NCBI GenBank assembly: GCA_973895155.1
Contig: OZ316896.1
Location: 21,148,152-21,212,151 of the forward strand
Direction: 5' to 3'
From: Marsupella aquatica
Taxonomy: Eukaryota; Plantae; Marchantiophyta
DNA: 64,000 nucleotides
The notes under the pieces were generated by a model. It searched no databases. It saw only the letters and a list, made by a program, of their open reading frames with translations, and was not told the origin of the DNA. A program made the translations under genes and the position numbers. Shown here one piece after another: positions 2,161 through 22,476 of this stretch (position 1 is the stretch's first letter; every line of letters starts with the position of its first letter).

Positions 2161-2455
2161 CTCGGGGGTTTCACTTCCACAAAAATGGCATATCACATGC
2201 GACGAAGGATAGGGTCATTTTATTGGTTGTAAGGGAAGACTTAAGAATTTTTGTAGAAGAACAATAGGGTCTTTTAAATTCAATTTTGAGACTTATAAGA
2301 ACATTAGGGCTTTTTAATCCAAATTTTGGAATATTCCAAGAATATTCCAACTTTATAGGGGTTAAAAAATAATTTTTTTTCTTACATTTTAGGGGGTCCA
2401 AGGCCTAAAAACGTCGCAGGTGATGTGGAGGTCCCCATGTAGTGAGACCCCCGAG
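2161..2455 (+). mobile_element. MITE family A copy 1 (295 bp)
   Basis: TIR CTCGGGGGT...ACCCCCGAG. 8-bp TSD TTGGTAGT/TTGGTAAT (one mismatch). Near-identical to 11807-12103 and 30336-30631. Confidence 0.95.
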
Positions 2456-3100
2456 TTGGTAATCATCTTGCGGCCTCACTTGCGCAACATAACCGGGCGT
2501 TCTCATTACAACAATGACCCCAAGCTCTGTTTGAGAGCAAGTATTGCAAGGACGCACAAATTTTTGAGTTCTTCTTCGAGGGAACCAAGTACCTCGGGTT
2601 TGGGAAAGCACTCCTTCGGCTTCCGGATAAGGTCTTTGAGATCCCTGATCATAGTATTCATTAAAACAGGAAATTTAAAAGTCCAGATTGTGATCCTCAA
2701 ATTTACATTCTTGTCTCTAAAAAGTCCATTAATTTTGCTCCAAATAAACAATTTTCAAGACTAAATATACACTCTTTTTGGTTTAAAATTACACTTTTGC
2801 ACTCCAAATTTGATTTTAATCAATTAATCAAATACAGAAAATATTAATATTAATTGTATTTGAAATTAAATAGATAAGTGACAAACATGTATCATTTGGT
2901 CAAAAACTCATGATTAAATTCAAAGTTAGATTAATCATCTCATTTATCATAACATATATTCAAGGTTGGCTAGCCATAATGTCGATCCTACTCCAATGGT
3001 CAAGCTAGTGTAAAGTCCAAAGTAGTTTTATGACCTGTGAAATAGAAAAATGATTGCATGACTCCAATCTTGTGTCCTACAATGTATTGAAACATAATGA

Positions 3101-4177
3101 TTAATCATCTAAAATTTCAAATTCTATGCCTCCATGAATATGTCTACATGACTGATTTGAACAAGTGAGTCGCTCTCCATTTGGGTCATATAGTCTGTCA
3201 CGAGTGCAAGTGTCTTTGGGATAACGGTTTTTAAATTTAGAGGTGAGATCCCTAGTCTTTAGAACTTCCCAGACAAATCGACGAGGATTTTCTCTGAAGG
3301 GACTTGCATAAGACTCGCCCAAACAGTTGTTGACCACATCTTTCATATCATCTTCGGTCAAGTTCTCAAATGTAGGGTAGGATTGTACCATATCCCTCAC
3401 TTCCCAACATATCTCATCTCCAGTGACATCCAAGATGGTATACTCAATCTTGGAACGCCAAATCTTACTTCCCCACTTATGGGAAAGTAAAGCATAGATT
3501 GCAGCATTACTTTCATGGTCATCATTTATATTAACAAATGACCAAAGTGGATTGTTGACAAATATATATTGTCGGATGTCATAAGCCTTCCACAATTTTC
3601 TAAGGAATGGCCAAAGTATCTCTAGTAGAAAAGTGTCACTCTTGGCAATGTGTGAGAAGGGAGTTGGGAACAAACCACTATACTGTGGATTTGCAAAAGC
3701 CTTCACTGGAGAGTCATCAATAAGTAGAGTGTTTGTATCATCATACTTGTCTCCAAAACGACTCCACACCACACGCAAATCCTTCAACATAATATTTGCT
3801 TTCCCATCTGCTACGTCCGGTCTTTTTATGCTAGTACGTATCAAAAGCATCTTCTTGTGTGAAAACAAATTTAAATTGCCTCCGCTCCTCTTCTTTGAAA
3901 ATCAAATTCATCATTTCATTAGTTCTTGGCCTCCCCGCACAAGTCCACAATGCGACATCAAAACCTTTGAAAGCCACATCCAAAAATTGGTGCAACCCTG
4001 GCCTTTCCACGTACATGAAATTGAATCCACCCCATCTCCCCCAATGCACACCCCGCACGGTTGTTGTAGATCTTAACGGTCCCGAGCTTTTTGTTTTGAC
4101 GCAATCCCAACAAATTTGGTCAGGTCCAAAATCAAGAGTTTTCTTCTTATATCAGAGTGCAATTTAGGAGTGAAATC
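3101..4177 (-). pseudogene. FCP1/NIF-homology HAD phosphatase domain (frameshifted), transposon cargo
   Basis: Motifs RRKLLILDLT (N-terminal HAD strand, about 4100-4150), YVERPGLHQFLDVAFKGFDVALWTCA and LKDLRVVW...NTLLIDDSPVKAFANPQYSGLFPTPF. Spread over three frames after an acceptor TTTGCAG at about 4178. Confidence 0.85.
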
Positions 4178-4207
4178 TGCAAAGATCCAAATGAATCAAA
4201 ATTATAT

Positions 4208-5276
4208 CTAAAAGATATAAAAGAAGAACTTAGGGTCGAACCTGGATCGACCCGACCTAATGGGGAAAACAAACATATCATTTTTTAATGTCAAAGCATT
4301 TTGATATATCAATGTAGAAGTACCTTGCTCAAATGCTTTGTCTTGGACCAGGGTACCGCTTGCTGAAGGTAGACCAATAATATCCTTCGATGGAAGAGAT
4401 GCTATGACAAAACTTTGGTCTGTCCATATATGATTTCCAAACATAATATTTTAGATTATTGTGAAAAATAGAAGAACGAAACCATAATATTAGCCTCCAC
4501 TACTAAAAGACCCATATTCATCTATCATTTTATCACCTAGATCACTTTGGATATCGAAATTGACGCCAACAGGAAGCTGCTCCACCAACGTTGGCGGCGC
4601 AAACACTGGACTCAATCTCAATTTGTCTATTATGTAATCAGGTTTGACCATTAACTTAGGCGCATCCTCCAACGTTTCTTTCAATCCAACTTTAGGTCCA
4701 TTTCTCCAAATGAAATGAGTTGCATGACGGACTGTCTTCATATATCCTGTTCTACCTATCTCAGATCCAGACTTTTGAGACAAGCGTAATATTATGGGGC
4801 TTCCGCTTGACATCCTTGTGAAGACCAATTTATTCCCTGACAAAAAAAATTGAGGAGACTCGAAACAAGTTGAAGCACCTGCCTCTTCAGCTTCAACATT
4901 TGTTGTCTCTCCAAGTGGAATGTTGTCTTCAATCGCTTGTGCAATACCAACTTGTAGGTCCGTGGTGGGTGTAGTGGCCCCAATATTCTGCCAACCTGCA
5001 TCCAATGTGCACGATACCTGCGGTCTCTCAGGATGCAATTTTGATACTTCAGGGTTGAGAGGATTTGCTGGAGGGTCGCCCTATCACTATGTCAAGTTGA
5101 GGTAGCCCTTCAACACCGTAGGTAGTAATGCCAACCATTTCTGTTGCTCGAGCATCCCAATTTCCGCCAAAATCCTCCTCTACCATAGGACTTGAACCTC
5201 CATCATCATGCTGCAACTCACCATCCTCAAGGTCAACTCGCTGAGGGCCCGGTTGGGGGTTGCCATAGGCCCGCAA
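4208..5276 (-). pseudogene. Linker/unknown region of the cargo gene between the MTase-like and phosphatase modules
   Basis: ORFs 5049-5276, 4490-5038 and 4208-4444 are consecutive. The last two share a frame, separated only by TAA stops. No domain recognised. Confidence 0.5.
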
Positions 5277-6743
5277 AGAACACTTAGATGAGCTCTACTA
5301 GGACCATGTACTCCCATCCGCTCTTTCATAAGGGAGGGAATCCTGTTGCACAAAACCCTTGCATATGCTTGGGTGAAATGGTGTTCTTGCAAAGTGTCTG
5401 AATAGACAAAACAATCTCGGTATGCCAACAAGGCCACCTTCAAAACCTGCCCTCCTGAAAAAAATCGAGGATAGTCTCCCCCTCACCGGAAAAACATTCA
5501 ATAATATTTTTGAGCATGTGTCGAGGCTTGGCATGCGGATTGACAAATCCTCCTCAACTTCCGACCATCTCAAACATTGGAGCTTGCCGCAATAAATCTG
5601 CCATATCAAATGCGGGAGACTGCTCCTCTATCTCATTCTCTTTTCCCTTGCTTTTCTCTTGCTTGTCAGCCTTCACTTCAATATTGAAATCACAGTCAAC
5701 ATCGGGGTGAAAACTAAATTTTGAATTGAACTGTGGCTTAAACAATTGATTCCAATCAAAATTGTCTTCACCTGTAATTCCAGCAAAAATGACCTGCTCA
5801 ATAGCTCCTGTAAAAATTAAGCCCTGCGGATTTGGGCGATCTTCCCGATCATAACTCCCGTTCAACATGGATGGCCAAACGCTTTTCATGTCCTAATTTC
5901 CTTAGGGCACTCAAGATGTTGGCTGGAAGTGGCCCTGGATGAGTAGTCATGACAACTACAATGGTTGTATTCCTTGGCAACTCCACAATATATTGGAGCA
6001 ATACAAAAATTTCCGAATCTGTCCATTCATGTTGTCGTGCCCTACTAAAATCAACAATTGCAAGTGGACACATTGGCGTCGCCTCTTCCAATAACTCTGG
6101 CATGGTTGTCTTCATTAGATTCTCACTGAAGAACGTCAAGAAAGGCTCTGTTCGTGTGCGCCCAACTCCACCAAATTGTTTGCAGTACAACCCGTCTAAT
6201 CTCACCATTAGACTTTGAGGGAAAGCCTCCTTTACAATGTTCTTCCTTAATAAATTGCTAAGGTAGACCTCCCCAGTTGCTCTTCGCAATTTTGTCAACT
6301 CAAGTTGAGATCCCAAGGCCGACATGATGTTGACCACCGAAGCCCACGATGTCCCCCCGGGAAACTTCTCTTTGTGCTTCTCAACAAAGTACTCAACAAT
6401 GACTTGCTTCAATTTAGTCATTACCTTGATGGTATGAGCCATATCTGGCATTGACACCATCCATCTTGTTGGAGGCATCTTTCTTGAGAAGTGCTTTCTT
6501 CTCATAAACCGCGGTCAATATATCAATGATATCCTTAAAACTGATCTCCCCTTCAAAACATCTAAAAAGAGTTGGTGTGACCAACTTTAGTGGTTGCAGC
6601 CCACCATACTCTCGTGCCAACCAATCCCAACAAACAGTTTGCCATAAATGGAAAAGCTTATCCTCAGCAAAGAGCAACCAAAAAATGGCTTTCAGGCTCG
6701 ACTTTCCCATTGTTATCTTTGCGAGGGCAAACCAATCCTGCAT
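5180..6743 (-). pseudogene. Beta-class N4/N6 DNA methyltransferase-like module (frameshifted; catalytic motif IV degenerate)
   Basis: Manual translation of 5553-5400 across a 1-bp frameshift in an A7 run gives GGFVNPHAKPRHMLKNIIECFSGEGETILDFF/SGGQVLKVALLAYRDCFVYSD. This matches the HPxxKP..LI..S..GD.VLDPFxGSG...A...R.F consensus. Upstream PLAIVDFSR...W sits where LIxTDPPY is expected. Confidence 0.7.
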
Positions 6744-6871
6744 TTACATTCATCCACCAAAAAACATGTTAGATGTTTAAACTTAGAAACTTCAACTTCT
6801 CTGCCTCGCCCCTAGAGCGAGGTGAAGAAAATGACAAAGCCATATGAAAATGGTTGGGGCAATCATTGTAT

Positions 6872-8490
6872 TCATAGTTCAATTCCGTTCGGGTCGCTCC
6901 AAGAGCGAGGCAAAATTAAACTACAGTTCCAACTAATGAAAATATTTACCTGGTATTTCTGGTTGTATGTACTTTGGTTTGTTCCAATTCCTGGACACGG
7001 TGGTTTCCCACATTCATCAAATTGCCTTCTCGCATGAACAACTGTCTCTAGAAAACAAGACTTAAACTGCATGGTCTGATTTACTGCATTTGAAAGGCTC
7101 GAGTGCTCGACCAAAATTGCCCTTGGAGTGAGGTCTGATAAGATCCTTGCTTTCCGATATTGGAGTTTGCTAGCAAGATCAGTTAGCTTGGCATCCTTGT
7201 CTGCCCACCCTTGAATCCATTGTGTAGCCTTTGCGGAATGTTGCCCACTGATTGCAAGAAATTGTATCTCTTGCTTCTTAACACCAAACAAAAACTGTTT
7301 CCAATCGTGTGCGACATTGTCAAAATGTAACAACTGCTTAGTGCGCTCTAGAAATGGAATCAAATCTGCAACATGTGGTTCCTGGCCAAGGTTTTTCATA
7401 ATTGATTTTGCTATCTCTAAGGCATGAGCCTGGTTGAACATCCGATACACAAAAACTGCAGTAGGCGGAAGAATACTTTTAACCGGGATTTCAAAAACCT
7501 CCCTGATTCCAAAAGTGTAGTATTGCTCAATGTTCCGCAAAGCTTTCTGCCCCTCCAATACATCTCGTTCCTCTAGTGCATCTGTTGGGCATGTATCATC
7601 CTTCGGATCCAAGACCAACCTTGCTTTTGACGCTAACACGGGGTTTGATTTTCCAATCTTGGCCTTCTTCTTGGGCTTCTTGGCGGAGTCCTTATCTTTC
7701 TTCTTCAACGCCGCCTTTTTTCCTCTAGTACTTCCTTCACTCCTTGGCTCTCTTTGTTTTCTCTTCTTCTGTGTTTCAGCCGGCGTCATTTCTTTGGCCT
7801 TCATCTTCATCTTCCCCTTACCTCGATGCTTTTCTTCCTTCTTCTTTTGAGTTGAAATCCACTTCATGCAAGCATCTTCGTCAAACTCGTCAGAGAAAAT
7901 AAAACTCTTATCAATTGCTTGCTCATATGAAAAGCGTGCTGTTTCAATCATCCTCTAGACAACCCATGTGTTAGGAAGATCTATAAGGTCCGAATGATCA
8001 TGCATGTACCGCTTCACAGAGAGGAATCCAAAGACAACATCAACCCCACTCAATTGAATTTTCCATGCCTCTCAAGAACATCCTCTGCAGTGAACCCATC
8101 TGGAAGAAATCCCATTGAACAAATACTAGCCTCCAAGTGTGCTATCCACTCCACGTTGATAATTGATGAGTACATCTTGATTGGCAAGTAAAGTCTCATC
8201 CACTGAGATCTTTCTCTGGATTCAATAATGATTGTAACATTGCGGTTATCACTGCAATTTACAAGGACCACAGGGCCCAACGCAACTATCTTCTTGTCGT
8301 TCATTGTCTCAGTAGTGATTGCCTTGATACAAATCATTGACAAGTCATTCTCCATGATCCCTACTTCAAGTGCCCACGAAAATCCTGCCTTATCTTGTCC
8401 AGGGAAAATAAAGTCCTTGACATCCTCGACCATAATATTTAACTCTGGGGATCTAAGTTGTTCCCCTGGCAAAACAAATTGAAACGACAA
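6872..8490 (-). pseudogene. N-terminal part of the cargo gene: basic region plus ParB/Srx-like domain
   Basis: FEIPVKSILPP..VYRMFNQAHALEIAKSIM..PHVADLIP...FLAISGQHSAKA resembles the ParB N-terminal fold (R..n..hv..l...I; viGGqHR..A). An intron CAG|GTAAAT (about 6949) to TGCAG (about 6739) links it to the next exon. Confidence 0.65.
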
Positions 8491-8569
8491 ACATTAAAGC
8501 AAGAGATCTTCTGTGTCGCCTTGCCCCTAGAGCGAGCTGGAGACAAGGTTTGCATCAACAAACATGTGG

Positions 8570-8878
8570 GTTGGGTCGCTCCTGGAGCGACCCTAGGAAA
8601 ACTTAAATCAAGGTCCAACCAACAACAAATTTGGATCGCTCCTGGAGCAACCTTAGGAAAACTTAAATCAAGGTCCAACCAACAACAAATTTGGGTCGCT
8701 CCTGGAGCGACCCTAGGAAAACTTAAATCAAGGTCCAACCAACAACAAAGTTGGGTCGCTCCTGGAGCGACCCTAGGAAAACTTAAATCAAGGTCCAACC
8801 AACAACAAAGTTGGGTCGCTCTTGGAGCGACCCACGACAAATCTTAGGCAAGATAGGGTCGCTCTAAGAGCGACCCTT
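8570..8878. repeat. 60-bp tandem repeat carrying the palindrome GGGTCGCTC-CTG-GAGCGACCC (6 palindromes)
   Basis: Palindromes at about 8573, 8633, 8693, 8753, 8813 and 8856. The first five are separated by a near-constant spacer TAGGAAAACTTAAATCAAGGTCCAACCAACAACAAA(T/G)TT. Confidence 0.95.
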
Positions 8879-10134
8879 CAAAGACTAACTTGCATCAATT
8901 GTTGAATCATACTTACGTGGAACTGTGATATGAAATCCCTTTGAGGCGGCCAAAGTGGATTCCACCGACATCTTTAGTAAAGTGTCTTGAGAATCATACT
9001 CAAAGATTTTACTAGAATCAAAGTTCAGGGACTACCCAAAACTAGAAGTGCTAGTAGAATCATCAGAACTAGAGAAAGTGGCCATTGAAAAATGCCTCAC
9101 AAACGTTTAGATGACACGTGGCAACCTAGGATACAAGAATGCCTATAGCTAGACCACACCACGGAGCAAGGCTACAGAGCGAGGAAAAAAATCTACTATG
9201 AGCAAGGCAAAATCAACAGAGCGAGGCAAGAAAATCTACTATGAGCGAGGCAAGAAGGAGGAGGGAAACCAGGGCAGCCGGGCAAGAAGACAATGAGGCA
9301 AATGAGGTAATGTCTTTGCCTTTTGCCTTCCTATACCCTCATTGCCACGGCCGATCCTACCTGCGACCCCCAGCCACGGTTGATCGTACCTTCAACGCCC
9401 AGCCATGGCCGATCGTACCTTTGCCTTATACAACCCAGCCACTTGCTCCCTTCCACGCGCCTGTGAACTCGCAACCCTCATAATGACCTAGCTGTACCGG
9501 TATCCATAGATTTTGAAAAATGATGCACGGTCGTACGGATGTCCATAGAATGCCGATCAAAGTAATCAGACTTTCAGCCGCTCGATGTTGTGAACCCCTA
9601 ACAAACTTGGCTAAAGCCTGCTCACAAATGGTATAACGCTCTACAATTCCAATCATTTCTCTCTTTTGTATGGCGCGTGCGTTTCTGGTCATTGCTCACT
9701 CTCAGTCTCGCCCTTCGGCCCTTGTCTATCTTGCTTCTGTTCGGTGACTGATTTGACTGACTTGGACATTTATGGTTACAAGAGTTTGTGCAAGGAAAGT
9801 CCTGTTTCAAGTACATTGCATTAGTTTTGGTGTCCTTGGTTAGCGACACATCTTCTACAGTCCTTAAGAGAGGTATCACTTCATCTACCATTCTCTTAAT
9901 TTCTTTATGATATCCACCAAATATTTGGCCCTAGCTTTATCTTAATATATGGACCAAACTAAGCCCTAGATAATGTAGGGTTCCTAACTACACACTCGTC
10001 TACCCACATGTCTACACACTTCAATGGTCTAATTCAGCTTAATCATTCCCATGATTTATTCATTTCCATATTTTCTCTTTTCCTTCACAATTCTTGCTTC
10101 TCCAGGAGTGTGCTCGTCTTTTCTTGCTCTCCCC

Positions 10135-10485
10135 TTGCCTCGCTCCAAGAGCGTCATACACTTACCTTTCATCAGGAGCATCCTGCCCTTTCTTTTCTCC
10201 AAGGGCATCCGCTCTCCATTGCCTCGCCCTCGGAGCGTCCCTCAACCGCTTCGCCCCTAGAACGACCCTCATTCACCTTGCCCCTAGAGCGTCTCTCCAT
10301 CGCCTCACCCCTAGAGCGACCCTCATTCACCTCGCCCCTAGAGCGTCCCTCCATTGCCTCGCCCCTAGAGCGACCCTCCATCGCCTCGCCCCTAGAGCGA
10401 CCCTCATTCACCTCGCCCTAGAGCATCCCTCAATCGCCTCGCCCCTAGAGCGTCATAACCTTGCCTCGCTCCAAGAGCGTCCCTG
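10135..10485. repeat. ~30-bp tandem repeat with core CTCGCCCCTAGAGCG (~10 copies)
   Basis: Repeated CCTCGCCCCTAGAGCGACCCTC(ATTCA/CATCG). The core is a variant of the 8.6-kb palindrome. Confidence 0.9.
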
Positions 10486-10662
10486 ACCTTAGAATCCTGT
10501 TGTGTAAAGCCAATACTAATAAACTCCCAAATATATTTTTTCCTTTAAATAGAATTCAAATGTTTAGATCTAAAATTGTAATATCTAGAGTAGTGCTTAT
10601 CAGTATGCACATCAGCTGAACAATTTTTAAATGTTTTTGGATGCAGAGATCCTTTCGTTACC

Positions 10663-13600
10663 ATGAGTAAATTTATGCGAGGGGATGAAGTTTCATTGAT
10701 AATTGATGGTTTTGAAGTGGCAATTGGGACCATCCAAAAGGTTGATCCCAAAGACACTATACACAATATTTGTCTTGGGAATAATCGAATTGGGGTCCTT
10801 ATCGAGAGGTGTCTTGAAACATCTTGTCCACTACCATTTCCATCCAAAACATCATCGAGCCTAGGTGATGCAGTTAACTCGTGTGTGATCTGGGATTCTT
10901 CCTTGGCATATTTGAGGTCTTCAACATTGCCGAAAAGAACTGTTGTGGATGGTGTTCCTACTCCAGTGGACGGGGATGAAGGATGTTCCGAAATGGACGT
11001 TGGTGGTAAAGGAGGCAACCTTGCTGAAGGAGAGGAGGTTGAGATGTTCATTTTAGATGAACTTGTATCAAAAGGAGTTGTCTTCAATACCAATCTAATG
11101 GACACTTGTCATAGTGAACGACTCGGTGTTGGCCGTGTCAGTATACAAATATCAGAGGTTGTTCAGGGAAATAGAAAATTACCGTATCCGCATCCTGGAG
11201 CTGACATAGTGCAAGAGGCAATGCAGACTTGGGTAATGTGGGATGTTGTTGATGTTTCAAGAAAAGGCTCTATTCGAGGTTCTGGCATGTTTGTTGGTGC
11301 AAACCCGGGTGCAAACCTGTTTAAGGATCTTCCATTGAAAGATTTTACAATGTGTTCCAACTGGATGGCAGAGGAAGTTGACTTGTATGATGTTTCTCGT
11401 TGTCGTAAGGTTGTGACAGGGGTTATCACAGTTCCTTTTGAAGCAGGTGCTGTTGATGATGAACTTCTTGGTCCAGAGCATGTGGGTGTAGCTATTGTGA
11501 ACGATCCCGCATTATTTCCAAATATCCGTGCTGGTACTTCGGGTTTGGTGAGGTGGGAAATCAAATCTTTGTTGTTGATTTCATCTCAAATGTTTCTTGG
11601 GGATATCCTTGAGAAAGGTTCACATGTGTGGATAGAATCAGGTTGAAATGAGAGCGACCCGGATTTGGATGGTGATGGGAAACCTCCAAAAAGACCATAT
11701 AATTTCATTAGAAGGACCAAAGTGGATCTGGAGGAGAAAAAAAAACATTTGCAATCAAGGGCGCTTTTGAAAATCACCGAGGAGTCCATTGATTCCATCC
11801 AAAGAGCTCGGGGGTCTCACTATATGGGGACCTCCCCATCGCCTGCGACGTTTTTAGGCCTCGGACCCCCTAAAATATAAGAATTTTTTAAAATTTTTTA
11901 ACCCCTATAAAGTTGGAATATTCTTGGAATATTCTAAAAATTGGATTAAAAAGACCCTAATGTTCTTATAAGTCTCAAAATTGAATTTAAAAGACCCTAT
12001 TGTTCTTCTACACAAATTCTTAAGTCTTCCCTTAGAACTAATAAAATGACCCTATCCTTCGTCGCACGTGATATGCCATTTTTGTGGAAATGAAACCCCC
12101 GAGCCAAAGAGAAGGTTGTTGCAGGTTAAAGTGTTGCTTGAACATGCCAAGAGAGGACTTCGAGGCAATGAGGAGGGAATTCCATGGAATGTCAAGTAAC
12201 AACAAAACAAGTCATATCTTCAGTCTTTTTGGGTGTAGAGAAGACCAAGTCAAGAGAAAAGGATTTTTTGTTCTAAAGGGACGTGTGGTTTTTAAGGATG
12301 CGTTCATAAAAATGCATGGGTTTAGTACGGCAAAGTATTATGATTACAAAAATCAATACGAAGCTGGGTGCACAATTGGTTTCCATGGAAATCAAGGGCA
12401 ACATAAGACATGATCAAGCACATTGCATGCTCGTGCATTGTTGGAGTCCATTTTAATCCAAAATGGAGAACCAATGCCACATCTTCCCTATGGTGGGTCC
12501 AACGGCACCGACACTGTCGAATATCGACTCCCATCATGTTTCACTAAGAAGGAGATTTTTCAAGAGGTATTTGCAAAGATGGAATTGGACTGCTACGCTA
12601 AGGTTACTGAAGTTACTATGTACAACATCTGGAAAAATTCTTTTGATAATTTTGACTTTCACAAGGGCAGTGCATTTGCCAAGTGCACATTTTGCACTGA
12701 GTTCAAAGATCAATTGATGCGGGAGAAGAGAAAAAAAGAGCGTGCAGAGATTGAAGAGAAAAGAGCACGACATCTTCATGAACAAATGTCAAGGAGATAT
12801 GTTTACTATGCTCATAGGGTTCTTGCAAAGAAGGATCCTCAAAACTATCTTTGCATTATTCATGATAAGATGGACCAAGCCAAGACTTGGATCCCCAGAT
12901 TGGTCCCCACTCCAAAATCTCTCTCTGGTAGTGGTCAACCTCTACCCATTGCCCTTACTGGGATGTTAACCCATGGAAGGGATCCAGGAGTGTATGCACA
13001 CTTTAGTTTGACTGGCCTTTGGCCTGGAGATGCAGACTTCACTGTGACATCTTTGGCCAAATGCCTTCGAGATTTGGAGGATTACACTGGAGACAAAATG
13101 GGAGACATGCTTGAAGCTTTCAATCGGAACGCAACTAGGCCAATATTTCAGTCTCTTTTGGACTTTGAAGCATTTCAAGCGGGTTACTTGGAACCCAAAA
13201 ATGTTTCAATTCTCAAGTTTCAAGGCCTTGATGACGGTCAGGAGAGCCAAAAAACCAGCACAACAGATGCTGGTTCTAGAGTTGATCCTGAGACTACGAG
13301 CTCTTTCAAGCCCTTACCAAGGCACCTAACACTGCAGATGGACAATTCAGGAAAAGATAATAAAAATCAATATGTGATGGCATTTTGCAGCGAGCTTGTT
13401 AGCAGGGGTGTTTGAAACTGTGCAAATGTCATTCCTCATGGTTGGCCACACCCATGAGGATGTGGATGCACTATTTTCTCAAGTATCCAAACAGGTCAGG
13501 TACAAAGAGGTTGCTACCCTCCTTGCGTTGATGGCTGAGGTTTGGGAGTGTGAAAGCATTCATCCCGTACCACGATTGATTTAGGAGGTTGCATCTTACA

Positions 13601-14670
13601 AGCAGTATTTGAAGGCTTTCCAAGTGAAAGAGATTGAAGGTCACTCAAAACCAGTGGCATTTCTATTCTCCATGAGGGATAATGTGCCAGTGTATCAATA
13701 TAAAGCACATGTCAAACAACCTTGGCTTCCAATCTCATCACAAACACGCTCATTTTACCGGAGGGCCAACCATTTGCAAAACCTATATCGGGGGAGGTAC
13801 AAAAGAAAGCCGAGGAAATCATCCCATTCCTTAAACGTTACATTGATTTCTTGAGGAAAAGTTGCAAGGATGAGACCTCTGCAGCATACCACGAGAGATT
13901 TCCTTTGGTGAAATATTGGGAGAGGCTTGTTATGGCACTCTCTGAGGTACTTACAATAGAAGGGGAGGGAGAAAGACAATTGTCATTGACAACTGATTTC
14001 TGGCCAAAGACTAACCATGGCACAGGTTACAAGGTGATTTTGGGGACCTCTCAACCTTCAAGTGAACCTACTCAAAATTCAGAGATGATGGACCTTCAAA
14101 ATGAGTACATGGAAGAGATGGAAGGTCAAGCTGCACCCTTTGTTGGTGCACGAGAAGAGCGAGAACTTGCACGTTGGATTCCCCTACAAGATATTCAAGA
14201 GGGTCACTTTGTGTTTTTACGTCCAGAGGATGAATGGGAGCAAAAAAATGGCAAAGGGCGTTTTCGGTTAGTTCGAGCTTTGGGTGGTGTGGATCCAAAC
14301 CATGAGGTTTCTTCACTAGATTTGCAAATTAGTGAAGGGTCTTCTTCAAGGTTTTCTAAGAGCATTCACCTAAGTAGCATTCCTAAGCGGTATGCTCCTA
14401 TGTTCCAAGTGCAATGGTGGAGGCCTAAACATGGTAAGCATGATGCAAAGGATGATGTTTGATACAAACGTTGCTTTCAGACCACTAAGACTTGGAAGCT
14501 AGATCTTGGGTTTAACACTATCACTCAAAGTTGGCAGTTTACAAATTCTGCAATGTATGGGTTAAGTCAGGTGCCAAAGAACAAAATATTATGGATAGAG
14601 GTTTGACAATTCCCAAAAATGTTTTGAAAACTCTCAAAATTTACATGGAAGGTATTGATGAGTAGAGTGA
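10663..14670 (+). pseudogene. Sola-like DDD transposase (DUF7869-type) with three N-terminal Tnp1/En-Spm-like repeats; disrupted by stops, frameshifts and a MITE
   Basis: Motifs GCC..KCC, HGNQG, CTFC, IIHDKMDQAK, TLQMDNSGKDNKNQYVMAF and FLMVGHTHEDVDALFS. The frame continues through TGA at 11644 and 12411 and across the MITE (IDSIQR|EGCC). Confidence 0.85.
11807..12103 (-). mobile_element. MITE family A copy 2, inserted in the Sola-like transposase
   Basis: Same TIR. Perfect 8-bp TSD CCAAAGAG at 11799-11806 and 12104-12111. Reverse orientation. Confidence 0.97.
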
Positions 14671-15251
14671 TAGAGTGGTCACAAGTGTCCACTATGTAAT
14701 GACTTGTAGTTAGGAGGGTCAAGTTAATTTCCATGCATTTGTCTAAAGTAAGTGAGAGAACAAGGCTTGCAATCAAATACTCTATGATCTCTCTTAGTTA
14801 TTGAATGGACTTTTTGATAATTATTGTTATTTTTGTCTTAGTACATATATTTCTAGAAAATGATGGCAGTTCTAAGTTACTTGGATGTCATCCTAGTTTG
14901 AATATAAGATATTTAACTTGTCTAGCATTTCATTGTTGCTTAGATAATGATCCTATCCAAGCTAGATGTTTTGAGTATAGATGCTATCCAAGCTTATGTG
15001 TTATTACACAAGTTCTATCTATTTTGAACCAAATGAACACTTTTTATCACCCAAATGTTTTTTAATATTATCCAAATTAATATTTTCTTTGCCCAAATGT
15101 CTATTTTTTTGCCCCAAATTTATAATTCATGATGCTTAAATTTTCATTTTTCATCCTTCAAATTTACAATTCTTATGCCTCAAAGTGTGTTTTTAAATGC
15201 CCAAATTTCCAAATCTTCTTTCTAATTCCACTTTTAATGAATATAGTGATC

Positions 15252-16214
15252 CTGGAGGACTTACAGCGCCACCACTTTGACAACATACCCGCCAAAGTAC
15301 AAGCACACCTTGATTGTCGGTTTGGCACTAGCTCAAATCCAAGTGGACCTGCTTTGGCTCCATCATCATTTGGCTTCATCTCTGGAGCTTCAACTACCAT
15401 GGCAGCTCCAGCGGCACCTACAGCCAACCTTCTCGAGCAAGGATAGGTGCAGATGCCACCCTGGGCCCCCTCAAGCCGCTCCCTACCACAGGTTGCACCA
15501 TCCACTCCCGCGTCCACTCGAGTGTGATCTGTGGTTAATGCGGTCAACCTAAGCTCAGAGGATGAGGAGGCTCCTCCCCTTGTACGCAACCCACCTGGTA
15601 CCCATCAACACGTGGTGGGTACCGCACCCTTGTCCTAGCAAGCCCAAACTTGGGAGGCAGCCACGATCACGGTTGCAACCCTGACACCAGTATTAACAAC
15701 GGTAGCAATACCATCTCCACCAGAGAGGGAAGAAGGAGAGTTGTCCCCCTCAGTCATCCCGAGAACCATTCTCGGGGTAAGAAGCGGAAGGAGCCAGCCT
15801 TAGTATTTGGGTTACCCATACGTAGCCACCGTCGCAGTGGCCAAATTGACCATGCATTGGATGGGGAAGAATGTCCACAAAAATATTCTCCACCCAAAGC
15901 ATGCATGTTACCTGAAGACCCAAGGGTTAGAGCACCTCTCCGCTCTTCCTTGGAACACTTGGAGGTACTACGGGCAGGACATGACAAAGTTTATCCAAAA
16001 CTTTGACGAGGCCCACCAGGTGACCCGTGCACACGGACGAGTGATATCCTTAAATGAGGCACGGTTAAAGATCATCTTTGGCTTACCCCAAGGAAAAGAT
16101 CGGGTAGAGTCACGAGCACCAAGACGCAAGGGAGCCAAGTACCATTCGTCTAGCTTCCTTCCCAAGGGACCAGTTGACAACGGCTTCCTCATGCGGACTT
16201 GTATCATCCTGGAG
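15252..16214 (+). pseudogene. Family X protein, middle part (plant-transposon/PMD-like domain), cut by the CACTA insertion
   Basis: VATVAVAKLTMHWMGKNVHKNILHPKH..LPWNT..IFGLP..VDNGFLMRTCIILE is nearly identical to ORF 34169-35104(-). Confidence 0.85.
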
Positions 16215-16234
16215 CACTACTACATATTTGCCAA

Positions 16235-16760
16235 TTTTGCGAAGGCGTTTTACAAGAGGAAGAAAGCTTTGCAAGATTAATCTCATCGCTAAACTTGCGA
16301 TACGATACCCATCGCACTTAGCGAATCTACACACATCGCAACACATAATTGCAAAACTTAGACCATCGCAACATTTTACGATACTTCAGGTATCGCAAAA
16401 CATTTCCGAAGCAATTATCATTGAACAAGTTAGCGATCTTTACCGCTTCGCAAATTCATTGAGATGCGCCGGAAAACTAAATGGTTGCGAATATTTAAGC
16501 ATCTCAAAATATTTTGCGAGTCTTATTGTCTCGCAAATGAGCGATGTTTGTGGAATATATGGCTAACTTGCGATAGTAATAGGCTCGCAAATCCTGTGCC
16601 TGTCTAGGGTCTCATTTTGTGAATGTTTTGGTTTCGCAACTTTGAGATGGTGGTATCTTCGGAAGTTTGCGATGAGGGGATGATGGCAATTAGGGAGCAG
16701 TTAAGTATCGCAAATGTAGCGATGAGTTTGCGGGTGTAGGGGTTTCGCAAGATGTTTTGC
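16235..16760. repeat. Left subterminal TCGCAA/TTGCGA motif cluster (candidate TnpA-binding sites)
   Basis: Many copies in both orientations, mirrored at 26570-27070. Confidence 0.75.
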
Positions 16761-16789
16761 AAAATATTATGAGCGCTTCAAAGAGGTGG

Positions 16790-17420
16790 AAAAGGAATGG
16801 GATTGGGGAGGGAGGGTAAAGGAGGGTGGATACATGTAATTTTTAGGGAGGGACAATGAAAAGGAGGAGGAAGGGAATGGGGCTAGGAGGGACAAGGAAC
16901 GGAGGGATCCAAGAGGGAGGATACAGGTTTAGGGGGCACAAGGAAATGAGGGAGGAGGAAGGGTATGTAGATATAGTTTTAGGGAGGGTTTGGATTTAGG
17001 GAGTGAAAATAAAAAGGAGGGAGTTTAGGGTTTAGAGAGGGACAAGGAAATGAGGGAGGGTATTGGTTTAGAGAGGGACAAGGAAATGAGGGAGGTTTAA
17101 GGGTATAGGTTTAGGAGGGAGGAGAGAAGCTAGGTTGTATAGGTAAGAGTGGGGGACAGGGGTGGAAAGTAAGGAAAGTATAGGGTTGAAATAGAAAGCC
17201 AGGGGTTGGGACAAGGAGAGGAAGGAGGAAGGAGGGTTTAATAAGAGGGACAGACAATGAAAGAAAGGAGGAGGGAGGTGGGTACAAGTAATAAGGAGAA
17301 CAGCTAGGGGGGGATTAGGAAAGCATGGAGGATAGAGGACTACAAGCAACATGAGTTTTCTTTGCATAAAGTCTACCAAAAGGTGTGATGAGTGTGGGGT
17401 AGGGATGGGAGATATAGAAA
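16790..17420 (+). repeat. Purine/G-rich low-complexity tract
   Basis: Repeated GGAGGGA, GGGACAAGGAAATGAGGGAGG and TTTAGGG motifs; very few C residues. Confidence 0.8.
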
Positions 17421-17569
17421 ACAACATTTGAAAATGATATACTTACAAAACATAAGTTTATTGATAATTGAGAAGCACATATTTCTCCATTCTACCGAGA
17501 AGAGAAATCTTCATATCATCAAATCTAACTATATATCCGTGTAGCTATATATCCACAAACACAGACCCC

Positions 17570-20500
17570 TCAAACTTGGTCCTCATCATCTTCAGGTTGG
17601 GACACAACCAGAATATCAGGCTTTTCCCCAACAATTGAACGAGACCGTGGCACATATGTGATGACAAGTGACCATTCCTCTGGGGTTGGGGGGTATGGAA
17701 TATAGAAAGATTGTTCCACATGACTTGGAAAAGTGAATGGCTCTGATGTTTGCCAATGAGATGGCTGGAAACTAGTGGCAGACGTCTTCAGTCGTGTAAA
17801 TCCACACTCATCTTGAACCACAGTAGGATTGTTACCTGCAAGGTTCACTTTGAACCACTTGCACTTGAAGACATACTCTTCAAACTTTGATTGTGCATCA
17901 TAAGATATCACTAGAATCTCTTCTACCTTTCCATAATGTGGCACAACATCTCGAATAATATTTGTGTCATGGCGACTGCTGCGGGAATCTTGAGAGAATT
18001 GTCCTTGAACTCCACAATCAAAGGTACGACCCCTCTTCTCATCAAGGGAAGAAATCCTAAAATCCATCAAACCATAAGGATATGTTACACAAAAATAGAC
18101 ACAAACATATTCCAATTAATTGAACACACCAAGAATCTGCCTCTTCAATATACGTGCTTGTATTACAAATGAATTAAATTAAACCAAGTGATTCAAATCA
18201 AAGGTTACTAAGGTAGATGGAGATCACCTGAAATGTCTTCCTTGTGTCCACATTGCTGTCCTTGTTGTAACCACTCTCAAGGGACCATGAACAATGGTAC
18301 GAACATCATCTGTGATAGCTGGAAAATGTAATACACTCTCTCCCCTGACCACCATGTCATCCACCTCAACTAACTTCTCCTTCATATAGTCAAGGTACTT
18401 TGGAAAAATCCTTGGTCTTGTGCTGTTACTTTTGGCATCCTCATAGAAATCCCTCCATTCTTCCATGATAGTGCTGTTACTCAACATGAATGTGGTCAGT
18501 TGTTTCACCTCCACTGGTGTCAACATGCGAGTTTTCCTAGCACCTTATAACAATCCTCTTCATCTTCCCTCTCCTCTACCCAAGTACGGGGAGAGGTACA
18601 ATCAATTGTGGCCAATATGTTACTACAATAGAACATACTCTCAGCTGCTAAGTATCCTGTAGCCATGCTTCCCTCAACCCGTGCACGGTTACGTACATAA
18701 CCTTTTAACACTGCCATGTATCGTTCTAGCCAATACATCCACCGACAATGCACAGGACCTGCAATGGCCACCTCATGAACAAGATGAACAAGTAAATGCA
18801 CTTGACAGTCAAAAAAGGAAGGAGGAAGGGCCTTCTCCAACTTGCATATCACCTCTACTGCCAAAACCTCCATCCCAGGGATCTCATCAGTATATATCTC
18901 CTTAGAGCATACCCATCTCAATAGTTTTCCCAATGACCAAAGGGCATCTTGCACTTCTTCACTTGCCAAACCTATTATGGCCACAGGCAATATGTGCTGT
19001 AATAACCTATGGTAGTCATGTGTCTTGAGATACCTTGGCCACTTATGATTGTCCTCCATCCCAAAGGCCTTTCGGAGATTGGCACCATAACCAGTAGGAA
19101 ACCGCATGTCTCCTATGCGATTATGAAACTCCCTTCTCTGGCCAATAGGAAGCACCCATGGAGCTGAAGGTCGATGCTCGATCCCTGTGATAGGATCACT
19201 TATGACCCACACGTCTGGATGCATCTCAAGATCCTCACAAGTCTCCCTGAAGTTAGTGTCTTTCTCTCCATAGAAAGCCTTTATCAAAGCCTTTCCCACA
19301 TGTCCCTCAATGTGCATGGGGTCTAATAGATGGCGGATCTTCAACTCACCCCAATAGGGCAAAGTGGTTAATATACTCCACCTTGTCAAGCCACTACCGT
19401 CAAATTGCATGGGATCCTCTGGGTCTGCCACTCTTGCAGCCATGTCTTTCCAGTGTGTAAAAGTTGTTGGCTCAGGTACATCACGCTCGTCACCAAAGGG
19501 CATATCAATAGAGGAAAATAGTAGTGGGTCACGCCTCATCTGATGTCCCATTGGAAGAAACTTTGTATGCCCAAGATAAACAATCTTGCGAAGATGTGAT
19601 GAATACTTGGCTACATCACCAAGGCTTGGGCCACAAGTGGAGCAAGCCTTGTAGCCTTGGGTTTGCAACCCACTCACAAAGCCAAATCCTGGTCATATAA
19701 ACACACATTATGTTAGGATTAGCACATGGAAATGAGGGGATACCATGCATTAGAATATGATGCATTTAAACAACAAAGTTCTTACCTGGGTAGTCATGCA
19801 TGGTCCACATACAAACCCCTTTGAGTTTGAAAACCCGTGGGGTACCCCCTGTAGTCTTTCGACCATCATATGCCCATACTCCTTCCCATAATTTCTGGAG
19901 TTCGTGAACCAATAATGTCAAATAGGTGTCCATGTTCTTCACCTTCTTTGGCCCTGGGATAATCAAAGATAGCAACAAAAAACCCTTTTTCATGGAAAAC
20001 CATGGTGGAAGGTTGTAATTCATGAGAACCACAGGCCAGACCGATGTAGGTCTCCCCTTCCCTCCAAGTGAATGAGGGCTAACTCCATCTGATGCCAACC
20101 CCAGTCGCACATGCCGAGGGTCACGCTCAAAATCTGGCCATGTTGATTCCACATGTTTATGAGCAGGAGAGTCAACTGGTAATCGCATGACACCGGGCTC
20201 CGAATGATGTTTCTTGTGCCATACCATCAACTCGGCCAAGTCAGAACATCTATACATGTGCAACAAGCGAGGAATTATGGGGAACCAACGAACTGCTTTC
20301 CTTGGTACCTTCTGGGTTAGCATGTTTGGCTCATACCGTGGCTCATGACACACTGTGCATTCTGTGATATGGGCTGTATCCCCGTGAAATAACATGCAAT
20401 CATTCACACAAGCATGAATAATATGGTAATCCATACCAATGGATGAGAGAACCTTCTTTGCATCCTTCCAGGTCCCTGGCAACACATTCTCCAAGGGTAA

Positions 20501-20962
20501 CATCAAGTCATGACAATATTCAAATATATCTGATAACATAGAATTGCTTGTCTTGTGTTTGGCTTGAATGTTCAAGAGCCCCAATATGGCAGAAAGATGG
20601 CTCAACCGAGCACCCTCAAAAATAGGTGTTCGAGCATGTTCCTCTGCCTCTTTCCATTGTTGTTGTCCCTCTGGAGTATGTTGTGGCCGTGGGTCATTTG
20701 AAGGGCCAACCTCATGACCAATGTGAGGCACATCATCCTCAACATCGGCACCAAACCAATCAACCATGAAGTCATCCATGGCTCTATCTTGATCATGCAT
20801 GACCTGGTCATCAGTCCGAGGTGCGGCTTCCTCATCAGCACCACCTACATCATTACTTGATGAGGAATCACCCTCTGATGGTTCTCCCTCTTCTGGCATA
20901 CCCATCTCCCGATATGTTGCTCTCAACCTTCGTGGTAACATTTGTTGAGATGGTTGCGCATT
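17570..20962 (-). pseudogene. CACTA TnpD transposase (Transposase_21 + DUF4218 + DUF4216-like), multi-exon, one frameshift near 18550
   Basis: Motifs IHACVNDCMLF, DPRHVRLGLASDGVSP, WPVVLMNYNLPPW, IPGPK, WTMHDYPG, LDPMHIEGHV, LKTHDYH, LPPSFFD..VHLLVHL, GPVHCRWMYWLERY and FKCKWF. Introns at about 19689-19785 and 18058-18227. Confidence 0.95.
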
Positions 20963-21173
20963 CTATGCACATTACAACCAAAAAACCTCCTCATGTATAT
21001 TTGACCAAGTACAACAAATTAAAATAGACTTAACACCATTCATTCAAGACATTAAGAATTAAAGTAAATGCATGGGCTAAAACCTTATTACTCCAAAATG
21101 AGCCCAAAGGCCATATATATAATAGTAAATGGGAAGTCCAAAATAGGTGCAAAAGGATAAAGGACATGATTTC

Positions 21174-22006
21174 CTAATCCCACTCATAGTGTGTGAATAA
21201 CTCATCTCCTGCTCTAATGGTCCTAGTAGCAAGAACTAAACAATGGTCCTTATGATATGTCGTGCCATATGGTGCCGGCATTGGACCATCAGTAAAAACC
21301 CACTCACAATTGGCCCTACGCTTGGGCCGAGTCCCCACAGTACTATTTATGAAACCAGCAATATTCCCATTACGTATGGGATCACCATCTATCACCCGCT
21401 GCTCACTATACCTTCTAGTGCTACCATCAAAATTATCCATCTCTAGAGCATATGTTTTCCACTCAGGATGTTGTGCAAGGATCATGTTCCAATGTCTTCT
21501 CTTGTAGATGGGTCCACCGTATGGGAACAAAGTAGGACCCTCTCTACCACGAACACTTGACCCACCCTCCTCATCCATGATGATATCCTCACAAGCAAAT
21601 ACTCCATATCCATGTCTCTCTCCAAGTGTGGAAGTTTTCACAATCCAACGTCTACCCCAAACCACAATCTCCTCATCAAAATCTGTAAAATAAGGCAAGC
21701 CAAGAGTGATAGGTTCCCAATCCTTGATGATAGAGGCACACTTGCCAGTGAATGAACAAACACCCCACCTACCCTGAACTAGTGTTCTGGATGGGTCATT
21801 GGGTGCTCGTGGCCTCCTGTTGGATTGGGGCCTGGACCGGGGTCTTCGTGTCTCAGTGGGCACATGAGGGTGTTCCCCTTCTGTCCCATGATTGGTACTA
21901 ATTCCCAAACCCAAGGCTTGTGAAAGTGCATTGCCTATAGCATCTAAAACTCCTTGTGATGGGACATAGGGTGGTGGTGTCACCAATCTACACATACTGG
22001 ATCCCT
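21174..22006 (-). CDS. SET-domain protein exon (putative lysine methyltransferase) inside the CACTA element; open frame
   Basis: SET motifs in the correct order: STLGERHGYGVFACEDI, PYGG, IDGDP..GNIAGFINS and VLATRTIRAGDELFTHY. Acceptor GAATAG|GGATCC at about 22007. Confidence 0.9.
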
Positions 22007-22115
22007 ATTCCATGCAAACACCCACAAACAACCAAATGTGTAAACCATATGTGTAAACATTGATTCACCTCTAAAAATAACAGTAAAGAACGGCAATCAA
22101 TTGAAACAAACTTAC

Positions 22116-22373
22116 CATATGGGATGAAGAAGCCCCGGGAGTAAGACCTCTATGACGTCCATATCTCTCAATATGTTGAGCACACACATAAGATTTTTGA
22201 GAAATTTGGCCCACACATCTGGTGCAGTCACAAAGTCTTCGGGGTGGACCATGAGGACCAGTAACCTCGGGCTGAGGAGGAGGGGGTATATCGTCATCGG
22301 AGGAGTACTCACTACTGGATAGTTCAGAGGAAGAGGACATATCCACTGCCACATTACATTGCATGTAGGGCAT
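22116..22373 (-). CDS. First exon with a transposase-associated-like Zn motif (CDCTRC...V..HI.RYG)
   Basis: RLCDCTRCVGQISQKSYVCAQHIERYG resembles the N-terminal CxCxxC..HL..GF domain of CACTA transposases. Strong phase-0 donor CATATG|GTAAGT at 22115. Confidence 0.7.
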
Positions 22374-22476
22374 GATTAGGAAAACTTAGGCCATATATAA
22401 AGCAATTTTTAAAAAAATGAACTCAAAAAACAATTAGGTTGGTTTATACATGGGGTTTTATTACCCTTTTATATTT

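What the first reader, a model, noticed from the sequence alone, without database searches (positions are those of the whole stretch)
3101..8490. Sola-like transposon carries a ParB-like / DNA-methyltransferase-like / FCP1-phosphatase cargo gene
Seen: inside the TIRs, one minus-strand run of decayed ORFs reads, N to C, as a ParB/Srx-like domain (ISGQHS), an MTase-like module and an FCP1/NIF HAD domain. The MTase module is hidden from the ORF track by a frameshift and reads VNPHAKP..LKNIIECFSGEGETILDFF/SGG. Known: ParB-N fused to a beta-class N4/N6 methyltransferase is a prokaryotic/phage architecture, and bacterial-derived N4-cytosine MTases have been domesticated in bdelloid rotifers and Marchantia. 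Inference: this is an intron-containing, TE-borne version. Motif IV is degenerate (VDFS rather than DPPY/SPPY), so it may be a pseudo-enzyme DNA binder. It could mark or protect the element, with the phosphatase acting on the Pol II CTD or chromatin. I do not know of this three-module cargo in Sola elements.
Basis: partly seen in the sequence, partly recalled or inferred. Interest (0 to 1): 0.88.

Follow-up and report, generated by a model that had tools for sequence, protein, structure and literature searches.

The report
Plant Sola transposon with three-domain cargo
This is a broken copy of a 12-kb plant jumping gene that carries, besides its transposase, a second gene with a bacterial-style ParB domain, a likely dead DNA-methylase domain and a phosphatase-like domain; the protein would likely bind palindromic repeats in the element itself, and only the phosphatase part is not already reported from algal transposons.

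Summary
The element runs 2648-15250, with 25-bp imperfect TIRs, a 4-bp target duplication (CCTG) and a DUF7869/Sola1-type transposase on the + strand. The obvious 300-bp inverted repeat is not its TIR pair but two copies of a MITE. Contigs from two organisms show a multi-copy family about 98% identical, whose indels fall on this copy's frameshifts. Read through, the minus strand is one predicted four-exon, 1645-aa gene. The ParB/Srx fold (all 8 chains with Z>=5) and the beta-class N4/N6 methyltransferase fold (TM 0.65) were confirmed on a Riccia homologue; NIF passes Pfam's cut-off. The methylase has lost DPPY and the motif II acid here and in the liverwort relatives that cover these motifs, so it is probably a pseudo-enzyme. 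All 18 copies of a 15-bp palindrome lie in the element's non-coding parts, like parS or VANC sites. ParB plus methylase opposite a Sola1 transposase is already published (Ectocarpus Sola1-1_Ec32). New here are the complete land-plant element, the dead motifs and the NIF module; no RNA shows that NIF is on the same transcript. Verdict: new variant of a known kind.

The parts
2648..15250 (.). Whole Sola1-type DNA transposon (12.6 kb; about 12.3 kb without the MITE)
   Evidence: Family contigs of runs X1 and X2 both end at 15250; beyond lies only a depth-19 contig among those listed. Left end inferred from TIR symmetry and the target duplication.
2644..2647 (+). Left copy of 4-bp target site duplication CCTG
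   Evidence: Sequence
15251..15254 (+). Right copy of 4-bp target site duplication CCTG
   Evidence: Sequence; contig ends at 15250
2648..2672 (+). Left TIR, 25 bp, 20 of 25 complementary to the right TIR
   Evidence: (pair I6); counted by hand
15226..15250 (-). Right TIR
6950..8433 (-). Cargo exon 1: unnamed N-terminal domain, Lys-rich linker, ParB/Srx-like domain (about 7505-7140; GQHS at about 7246-7235). Broken by a frameshift at 8053 and a stop at 7957.
   Evidence: homologue P0001 is 47% identical over the exon and reads through the stop; fold
6738..6949 (-). Intron 1 (GT..AG, phase 0) holding two palindromes
   Evidence: the Calypogeia gene model P0011 aligns across the junction, and 34 of 77 hits end near it
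4495..6737 (-). Cargo exon 2: helical region, beta-class N4/N6 MTase-like domain (about 6075-5350; LAIVDFSR at about 6061-6038; DFF/SGG at the 5457 frameshift), low-complexity linker
4420..4494 (-). Predicted intron 2 (GC donor here, GT in family contigs); the unspliced reading stops at 4492
   Evidence: (4493 G>A); acceptor chosen to fit the frame, weakest junction
4324..4419 (-). Predicted exon 3 (96 nt, phase 1/1)
4177..4323 (-). Predicted intron 3 (GT..AG) with a decayed palindrome near 4226-4263
   Evidence: (D5)
3101..4176 (-). Cargo exon 4: NIF/FCP1-type HAD domain (about 4150-3570), motif I DLNK in family contigs; frameshifts at 4114 and 3834 in this copy
8521..8873 (.). Palindrome array upstream of the cargo gene (60-bp units; TCGCYC-N3-GRGCGA x7)
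10140..10480 (.). Palindrome array upstream of the transposase (27-bp units; x9)
10594..14462 (+). Decayed Sola1-type transposase gene: 5' ORF of three similar repeats, then DUF7869 with candidate DDD residues (HDKMD, QMDNS, HEDVD)
   Evidence: PF25273 E 1e-15 and 4e-17; the repeats were seen by eye, with no Pfam hit
11807..12103 (-). MITE inserted in the transposase gene of this copy, 8-bp target duplication CCAAAGAG
   Evidence: family contigs stop at 11805-11806 and a loose end skips the MITE
2161..2455 (+). Second copy of the same MITE, outside the element; not a TIR
   Evidence: third copy at 30336-30631

Best explanation
This is a dead copy of a recently multiplied Sola1-type transposon of a likely land plant, whose second gene is predicted to encode a self-targeting accessory protein. 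Shown: the element's right end and 4-bp target duplication, the opposite-strand gene, its three domains, the decay of this copy, the open family frame, and palindromes confined to the element's non-coding parts. Inferred mechanism: (1) the ParB-like domain, with the helical region after it, would load on the palindromes, as ParB does on parS and as VANC does on VANDAL introns and intergenic repeats; (2) the MTase fold, which lacks the catalytic PP-aromatic motif and the SAM-ribose acid, would bind or shield the CG-containing sites rather than methylate them; (3) the NIF domain, which keeps the nucleophile Asp but has Asn for the second Asp, would bind or slowly dephosphorylate a phosphoprotein such as the Pol II CTD. 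The likely net effect is that the element's two divergent genes stay transcribable. My odds: self-binding regulatory role about 0.5, MTase inactive about 0.75, NIF on the same protein about 0.65.
For: Nine family indels, filled with N, plus three introns turn the broken ORFs into one 1645-aa frame with only 2 stops; the family removes one (5556) and a homologue reads through the other. Summed contig depth in run X1 stays near 250-380 over the unique parts from the cargo to 11806, and the right-end contig has 349. ParB/Srx: 8 of 8 chains with Z>=5 among 48,161, best Z 8.2, rmsd 3.0, 85 aligned. MTase: hhalign 96.4%, E 1.1e-9, 198 columns, LAIVDFS placed on DLIIADPPY; the Atlas model of P0060 425-648 gives TM 0.64-0.66 over 171-183 residues to clusters that all carry PF01555, 3 of 10 rows also ParB_N. 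Degenerate motifs are shared with Riccia: DFAR and DLIA at motif IV, DFFSGG/DLFSGG at motif I, Ala/Thr/Ser for the motif II acid. SPPY to APPA abolishes the rotifer enzyme (PMC8885841). Palindrome: 18 of 18 matches inside the element, all non-coding, 0.16 expected. Precedents.
Against: No RNA was available, so splicing and expression are predicted only. Unspliced, the frame stops at 4492, and none of the 77 homologues showed a match to the NIF part. The folds are of a Riccia homologue about 20-25% identical; the window's own ParB piece gave pLDDT 37 and the MTase half of my model stayed near 30. The N-terminal half of the MTase is not significant alone (z 0.4; 1 of 60 shuffles reached it as a profile). 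Foldseek gave no PDB match at E<=0.001. The palindrome pattern was drawn from the data, and array copies are not independent. The palindromes could be transposase sites. This copy shows more G>A/C>T changes than the reverse (66 against 37 in X1) and CpG o/e of 0.52-0.54 in cargo exons, so the element was not fully protected from methylation. No binding or activity was tested.
Confidence: 0.5

Rival explanations
1. The NIF exon is a separately captured gene or an alternative product; the conserved accessory protein is ParB-MTase only and ends at the stop at 4492.
For: The unspliced frame stops at 4492, in family contigs too (read by hand). The intron 2 acceptor is weak and was chosen to fit. 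No NIF match in 77 homologues, and the Ectocarpus protein is described with two domains.
Against: Family contigs have a GT donor exactly at the end of the frame. Introns 2 and 3 are AT-rich (GC 0.25, 0.32), and phases 1/1 join all frames. A more diverged relative stops aligning at 4501 and also carries DLNK (tables 7 and 8). Most homologues are exon-sized ORFs or decayed gene models, so their lack of NIF is weak evidence.
Confidence: 0.3
2. The MTase is an active amino-methyltransferase with a rewired active site that puts 4mC or 6mA on the element, for example at the CG in the palindromes, blocking host 5mC.
For: The whole beta-class fold is kept, with the Asp of motif IV, the HP..KP segment and DFFSG conserved as far as liverworts. 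The Ectocarpus protein is predicted to make 4mC or 6mA.
Against: PP and the aromatic residue of motif IV are absent in the 3 plant sequences that cover it; motif I is one residue short and the motif II acid is missing in the 3 that cover those. Inactive MTase domains in transposons have precedent in DIRS1 (PMC4738411).
Confidence: 0.12
3. The palindromes are transposase sites, and the cargo protein helps transposition itself (end pairing, target choice) or is a passenger with no role in silencing.
For: One array lies just upstream of the transposase gene. A Sola1-like transposase locus from a metagenome has no such cargo within 10 kb on either side (L010 and L011 are the same sequence). The copy carries methylation-type decay.
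Against: The arrays lie 5-6 kb from the ends, not at them, and enter the cargo's intron 1. The cargo frame is open in family contigs over about 4.9 kb, and GQHS is kept in 49 of 77 homologues, which argues against a neutral passenger.
Confidence: 0.25
4. The modules are unrelated nested insertions that happen to lie in a row.
For: In the window alone they are separate broken ORFs, and no single contig spans the whole stretch.
Against: Overlapping family contigs of equal depth (314, 309, 293, 309) tile 2670-8599, and ParB and MTase parts occur in one chain in Riccia P0055 and P0060.
Confidence: 0.03

Closest known systems
Ectocarpus Sola1-1_Ec32 accessory gene (PMC12477816, Genome Biol 2025; passages and supplement rows read)
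   Same: Giant Sola1 element, 4-bp target duplication, extra gene on the strand opposite the transposase, ParB-like domain plus N4C/N6A methyltransferase domain, proposed to bind and modify its own element.
   Different: Brown alga, 21.5 kb, 282-bp TIR, 1104-aa protein described with two domains. Here a plant element of 12.3 kb with 25-bp TIRs, a predicted 1645-aa protein, degenerate MTase motifs, a NIF module and palindrome arrays. I did not see the Ectocarpus sequence, so homology and its motif state are untested.
Plavaka accessory genes PAG2/PAG3 of red algae (bioRxiv 10.1101/2025.02.11.637652; passages and section 8 read)
   Same: Transposon-borne ParB-like domain next to tandem arrays of inverted repeats; PF01555 methylase as cargo; cassette moves between transposon families.
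   Different: There ParB is fused to a 2OG oxygenase and the methylase to a SET domain, in two genes of EnSpm-type elements; here ParB and methylase are one frame, followed by NIF.
VANDAL/VANC anti-silencing system of Arabidopsis (PMC5735166; abstract and section 7 read)
   Same: Accessory protein whose targets are tandem repeats in introns and intergenic parts of its own element; a functional analogy only.
   Different: No shared domain was found or sought; the VANC effect is shown experimentally, here it is inferred.
Domesticated N4-cytosine MTases: MpDN4MT1 of Marchantia and N4CMT of bdelloids (passages read)
   Same: Beta-class (permuted) amino-MTase fold of bacterial type in a eukaryote.
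   Different: Host genes with intact (T)SPPY and proven activity; no ParB domain is mentioned in the passages read. This family lacks the motif.
Phage and bacterial ParB_N + N6_N4_Mtase fusions (Atlas rows 2, 7, 9; ParB-Tls loci in PMC4738411)
   Same: Same domain order and folds.
   Different: Intronless; catalytic motif DPPY in the phage MTases fetched here; no NIF domain.

Membership tests
Sola1 DNA transposons | 4-bp target site duplication | tested here: met
   CCTG on both sides; right end fixed by contigs of two runs, left end by symmetry
Sola1 DNA transposons | AWWT target preference (called a hallmark in PMC3845634) | tested here: inconclusive
   The single site here is CCTG, not AWWT; a preference cannot be judged from one insertion, and the Ectocarpus family is described only as biased to end in A
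Sola1 DNA transposons | Terminal inverted repeats | tested here: met
   25 bp, 20 of 25 complementary
Sola1 DNA transposons | Sola1-type DDD transposase | tested here: inconclusive
   DUF7869 hit above cut-off and three candidate Asp motifs. That DUF7869 marks Sola1 is recalled; no named Sola1 transposase was aligned and no tree was built.
ParB-MTase accessory proteins of giant transposons (Sola1-1_Ec32 type) | Gene inside the element on the strand opposite the transposase | tested here: met
ParB-MTase accessory proteins of giant transposons (Sola1-1_Ec32 type) | ParB-like domain followed by an N4/N6 MTase domain in one frame | tested here: met
   folds tested on homologue P0060
ParB-MTase accessory proteins of giant transposons (Sola1-1_Ec32 type) | Common descent with the algal proteins | not tested
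   The Ectocarpus protein sequence was not in hand
ParB/Sulfiredoxin superfamily | ParB/Srx core fold | tested here: met
   Z 8.2-5.5 for SerK, Srx, KorB, PadC, SbnI, Atu1540, pNOB8 ParB; Noc, Srx and ParB lead Foldseek
ParB CTPase clamps | GxxR nucleotide-binding motif (recalled) | tested here: not met
   GQHS in 49 of 77 homologues, His invariant in the alignments, no Arg at the fourth place
ParB CTPase clamps | Binding to a palindromic parS site | not testable with these tools
   Candidate palindromes exist; binding not assayed
Beta-class N4C/N6A DNA methyltransferases (PF01555) | Permuted fold, catalytic motif IV before SAM-binding motif I | tested here: met
Beta-class N4C/N6A DNA methyltransferases (PF01555) | Catalytic (D/S/N)PP(Y/F) motif | tested here: not met
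   DFSR in window and family contigs; DFAR and DLIA in Riccia
Beta-class N4C/N6A DNA methyltransferases (PF01555) | FxGxG loop and motif II acidic residue | tested here: not met
   FSGG, one residue short, and Ser/Ala/Thr where the phage enzymes have Glu
FCP1/SCP (NIF) HAD phosphatases | NIF domain | tested here: met
   PF03031 above cut-off; weak TIGR02245/02250/02251 hits
FCP1/SCP (NIF) HAD phosphatases | DxDx(T/V) motif (recalled) | tested here: not met
   DLNK in family contigs and in a diverged relative, read by hand; candidate motifs WTCA, KDL and IDD are present
FCP1/SCP (NIF) HAD phosphatases | Activity on the Pol II CTD | not testable with these tools
   No assay

The most novel reading that the evidence does not exclude
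Land-plant Sola1 elements evolved a one-protein anti-silencing device from three repurposed enzymes: a ParB-like module that loads on parS-like palindromes in the element, a dead bacterial methylase that shields CG sites, and a CTD-phosphatase-like module that couples the element to RNA polymerase II. It would be a second sequence-specific, transposon-encoded anti-silencing system in plants, unrelated to VANC and built from prokaryotic parts.
Probability: 0.2. Interest if true: 0.85.

Novelty: new variant of a known kind. Interest (0 to 1): 0.5.

Why it matters
Algal papers propose that ParB-methylase accessory proteins bind and modify their own transposon; the passages I read report no test. 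This element gives a complete, recently multiplied plant example with defined ends, an open family frame and a candidate 15-bp binding site, so binding and anti-silencing can be tested directly. It also suggests that the plant branch kept the methylase fold after losing its catalytic motifs and added a phosphatase-like module, which points to a role as binder and recruiter rather than as writer of 4mC or 6mA.

Tried and rejected
No genome is held for the window. Word-index homologue searches among longer proteins found nothing for the ParB, MTase and NIF parts (weak evidence). Scans of metagenome contigs with the MTase ORF and viral contigs with the ParB ORF found no relative. No RNA holder was listed, which says nothing on expression. 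The single-sequence fold of the window's ParB piece had pLDDT 37, and the MTase half of the P0060 model about 30. PDB sequence searches gave nothing relevant. The Atlas search with the window's 5852-6514 ORF gave mainly unnamed viral and bacterial clusters at 0.91-0.92 and one IstB row at 0.86. The Vibrio phage 'methyltransferase' hit for the motif IV piece (E 5) lies mostly upstream of that gene: rejected as noise, as were the plasmid hits. Alignment A2 misplaced the window's fragments and was not used. No ParB was found in 5 phage records. The 300-bp inverted repeat was rejected as the TIR pair. An alternative duplication ATCC with ends 2645/15248, which would leave the host ORF in frame, was set aside because both runs' contigs end at 15250 and its TIRs are not symmetric. 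The high CpG o/e of the 27-bp array (0.89) is no test of protection, since the unit itself holds CG. No complex prediction and no phylogeny were run.


Full report
Element and ends. The window looks like repeat-rich plant DNA (inference from its transposon content and from liverwort homologues; the organism was not identified). The long inverted repeat 2161-2455 / 11807-12103 is not a TIR pair. A self-BLAST finds a third copy at about 30336. Each copy has its own short inverted ends and an 8-bp target duplication. The 11807 copy splits the transposase, and family contigs lack it. The real right end is 15250: family contigs of runs X1 and X2 both stop there, and among the listed pieces only a depth-19 contig continues. 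Its last 25 bases match 2648-2672 at 20 of 25, and CCTG flanks both ends. The + strand carries a decayed DUF7869 transposase. A 4-bp duplication fits Sola1; the AWWT preference (PMC3845634, passages) is not seen at this one site.

One gene, broken in this copy. Six runs hold the stretch, four of them about half of its words; these four (2 organisms, 2 studies) were laid. The best holder may be the window's own source, so it is not independent support. In X1, overlapping contigs about 98% identical and of depth 293-314 tile 2670-8599. One search listed 12 of 24 indels. I used the 9 that lie in the gene, leaving out three outside it, and filled missing letters with N. The minus strand then falls into long frames. 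With three introns these give 1645 aa from ATG 8433 to the stop at 3103, with two internal stops. The family removes the one at 5556 and homologue P0001 reads through the one at 7957. Intron 1 is backed by a Calypogeia gene model and by 34 of 77 hits ending near it. Intron 3 has good consensus sites. Intron 2 is the weak point: the family has a GT donor, but the acceptor was picked to fit and the unspliced frame stops at 4492.

ParB domain. Profile libraries do not name it; among 43 aligned sequences one weakly hit DndB and one a ParB PHROG. A full phmmer search found 77 relatives. Of 20 looked up, the 9 with a species name are liverwort proteins, 8 Riccia sorocarpa and 1 Calypogeia fissa. P0060, folded with 43 sequences, reaches pLDDT about 90 over residues 101-230. 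All 8 of 48,161 chains with Z>=5 belong to the ParB/Srx superfamily (membership of SerK, SbnI and Atu1540 is recalled). Noc, Srx and ParB lead Foldseek, though none reaches E 0.001. The motif is GQHS in 49 of 77, without the Arg of GxxR (recalled), so CTP clamping should not be assumed.

Methyltransferase-like domain. The 32-aa piece hits PF01555 (E 2.4e-4). In a phage search with 279 records, most of the 30 rows shown are annotated as DNA methyltransferases. I built a profile from 8 of these, which were chosen by that piece and are therefore circular for it. The part after the frameshift matches independently (z 4.4); the N-terminal half alone does not (z 0.4; as a profile 1 of 60 shuffles reached it). 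The plant profile of 4 sequences aligns over 198 columns at 96.4%. The Atlas model of P0060 425-648 matches clusters carrying PF01555 at TM about 0.65 over 171-183 residues. Motif IV is DFSR here and in the family (all 21 differences in 5400-6687 are listed and none falls there), and DFAR or DLIA in Riccia. Motif I is DFFSGG or DLFSGG, one residue short, and the motif II Glu is replaced. Loss of Ser and Tyr kills the rotifer enzyme (PMC8885841, passages), and inactive MTase domains ride in DIRS1 elements (PMC4738411, passages). A pseudo-enzyme is likely.

NIF domain. PF03031 passes its cut-off on both sides of a frameshift. Family differences give LILDLNK at motif I, and a loose end from a diverged relative reads the same (by hand). 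The first Asp is kept and the second is Asn, so it is not a canonical FCP1/SCP site. None of the 77 homologues matched this part, but most stop at exon 1.

Palindromes, which the finding does not mention. TCGCYC-N3-GRGCGA occurs 18 times with up to one mismatch, all inside the element: 2 in intron 1, 7 upstream of the cargo gene, 9 upstream of the transposase; 0.16 are expected. With two mismatches, 20 lie inside and 5 outside. The pattern is post hoc and array units are not independent, but the motif recurs in 60-bp units, 27-bp units and an intron. This matches the inverted-repeat arrays beside red algal PAG3 (bioRxiv 10.1101/2025.02.11.637652, section 8) and the sites where VANC binds (PMC5735166, abstract and section 7). 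Against full protection, this copy shows 66 G>A/C>T changes against 37 reverse ones (X1).

What is known. Its passage describes a 1104-aa ParB plus N4C/N6A methyltransferase gene opposite the transposase in the 21.5-kb Sola1-1_Ec32, and its supplement gives a 4-bp duplication. So two of the three modules in a Sola1 element are published. Its reference 50 (pmid 21507349) was seen only as a listing. Earlier notes also report decayed plant ParB-MTase copies without the catalytic motif and an animal Sola element with palindromic arrays; the latter I did not check. I found no report of a NIF module in such cargo or of a land-plant element: 0 papers for transposon+ParB+liverwort+methylase, no NIF or PF03031 term in the 20 listed of 1,670, 3 unrelated listings, only the red algal paper relevant among 4, and 0 scan notes. 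The library lacks most subscription papers and Repbase, and bioRxiv supplements (Bostrychia Table 6) could not be seen. The Marchantia preprint (10.1101/2021.02.12.428880) and PMC12973397 (Ginger and Sola together 9 of 3203 active plant clusters) were read as passages.

Verdict. It is a new variant of a known, so far untested kind: a complete plant element with a likely dead methylase, a likely fused NIF domain and a candidate binding site. Interest 0.5.

Noticed in passing
window 2161-2455, 11807-12103, 30336-30631: Three copies (93-94% identical) of a ~296-bp MITE with short inverted ends and 8-bp target duplications; very high contig depth (71,000 in X1 against about 300 for the element), so a very abundant family, hAT-like by duplication length (recalled).
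   Followed up: partly
window 10594-11646: ORF with three similar ~100-aa repeats (V..G.I...DP.D..H...LG..R.GV.I...LPFP...DA....V.WD) just before the transposase core; no Pfam hit; probably the transposase N-terminus and a rival binder of the palindromes.
   Followed up: partly
window 2456-2647 and 15251-16280: The element sits in a decayed ORF of another transposon; CACTA-like ORFs and TTGCGA repeats follow at 16300-27000, so this looks like nested insertion.
   Followed up: partly
window 8054-8433: The cargo's N-terminal ~150-aa domain has no Pfam hit but is conserved in several homologues (P0001, P0002, P0004, P0008, P0027).
   Followed up: partly
window 5071-5100: Family contigs carry 14 more bases at 5082 that complete another copy of the palindrome, apparently inside coding sequence.
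   Followed up: partly
window 12140-15170: Contig depth over the transposase is 3-7 times that over the cargo in X1, so related Sola families exist that either lack this cargo or carry a diverged one; low-depth diverged contigs do cover parts of the cargo.
   Followed up: no
window 50838-53051: Two long minus-strand ORFs (421 and 292 aa) with Cys/His-rich motifs that look like another DNA transposase; not examined.
   Followed up: no
L010 8510-10734: Metagenome locus with a Sola1-like transposase 40% identical to this one and no ParB, MTase or NIF match within 10 kb; L011 is the same sequence.
   Followed up: yes
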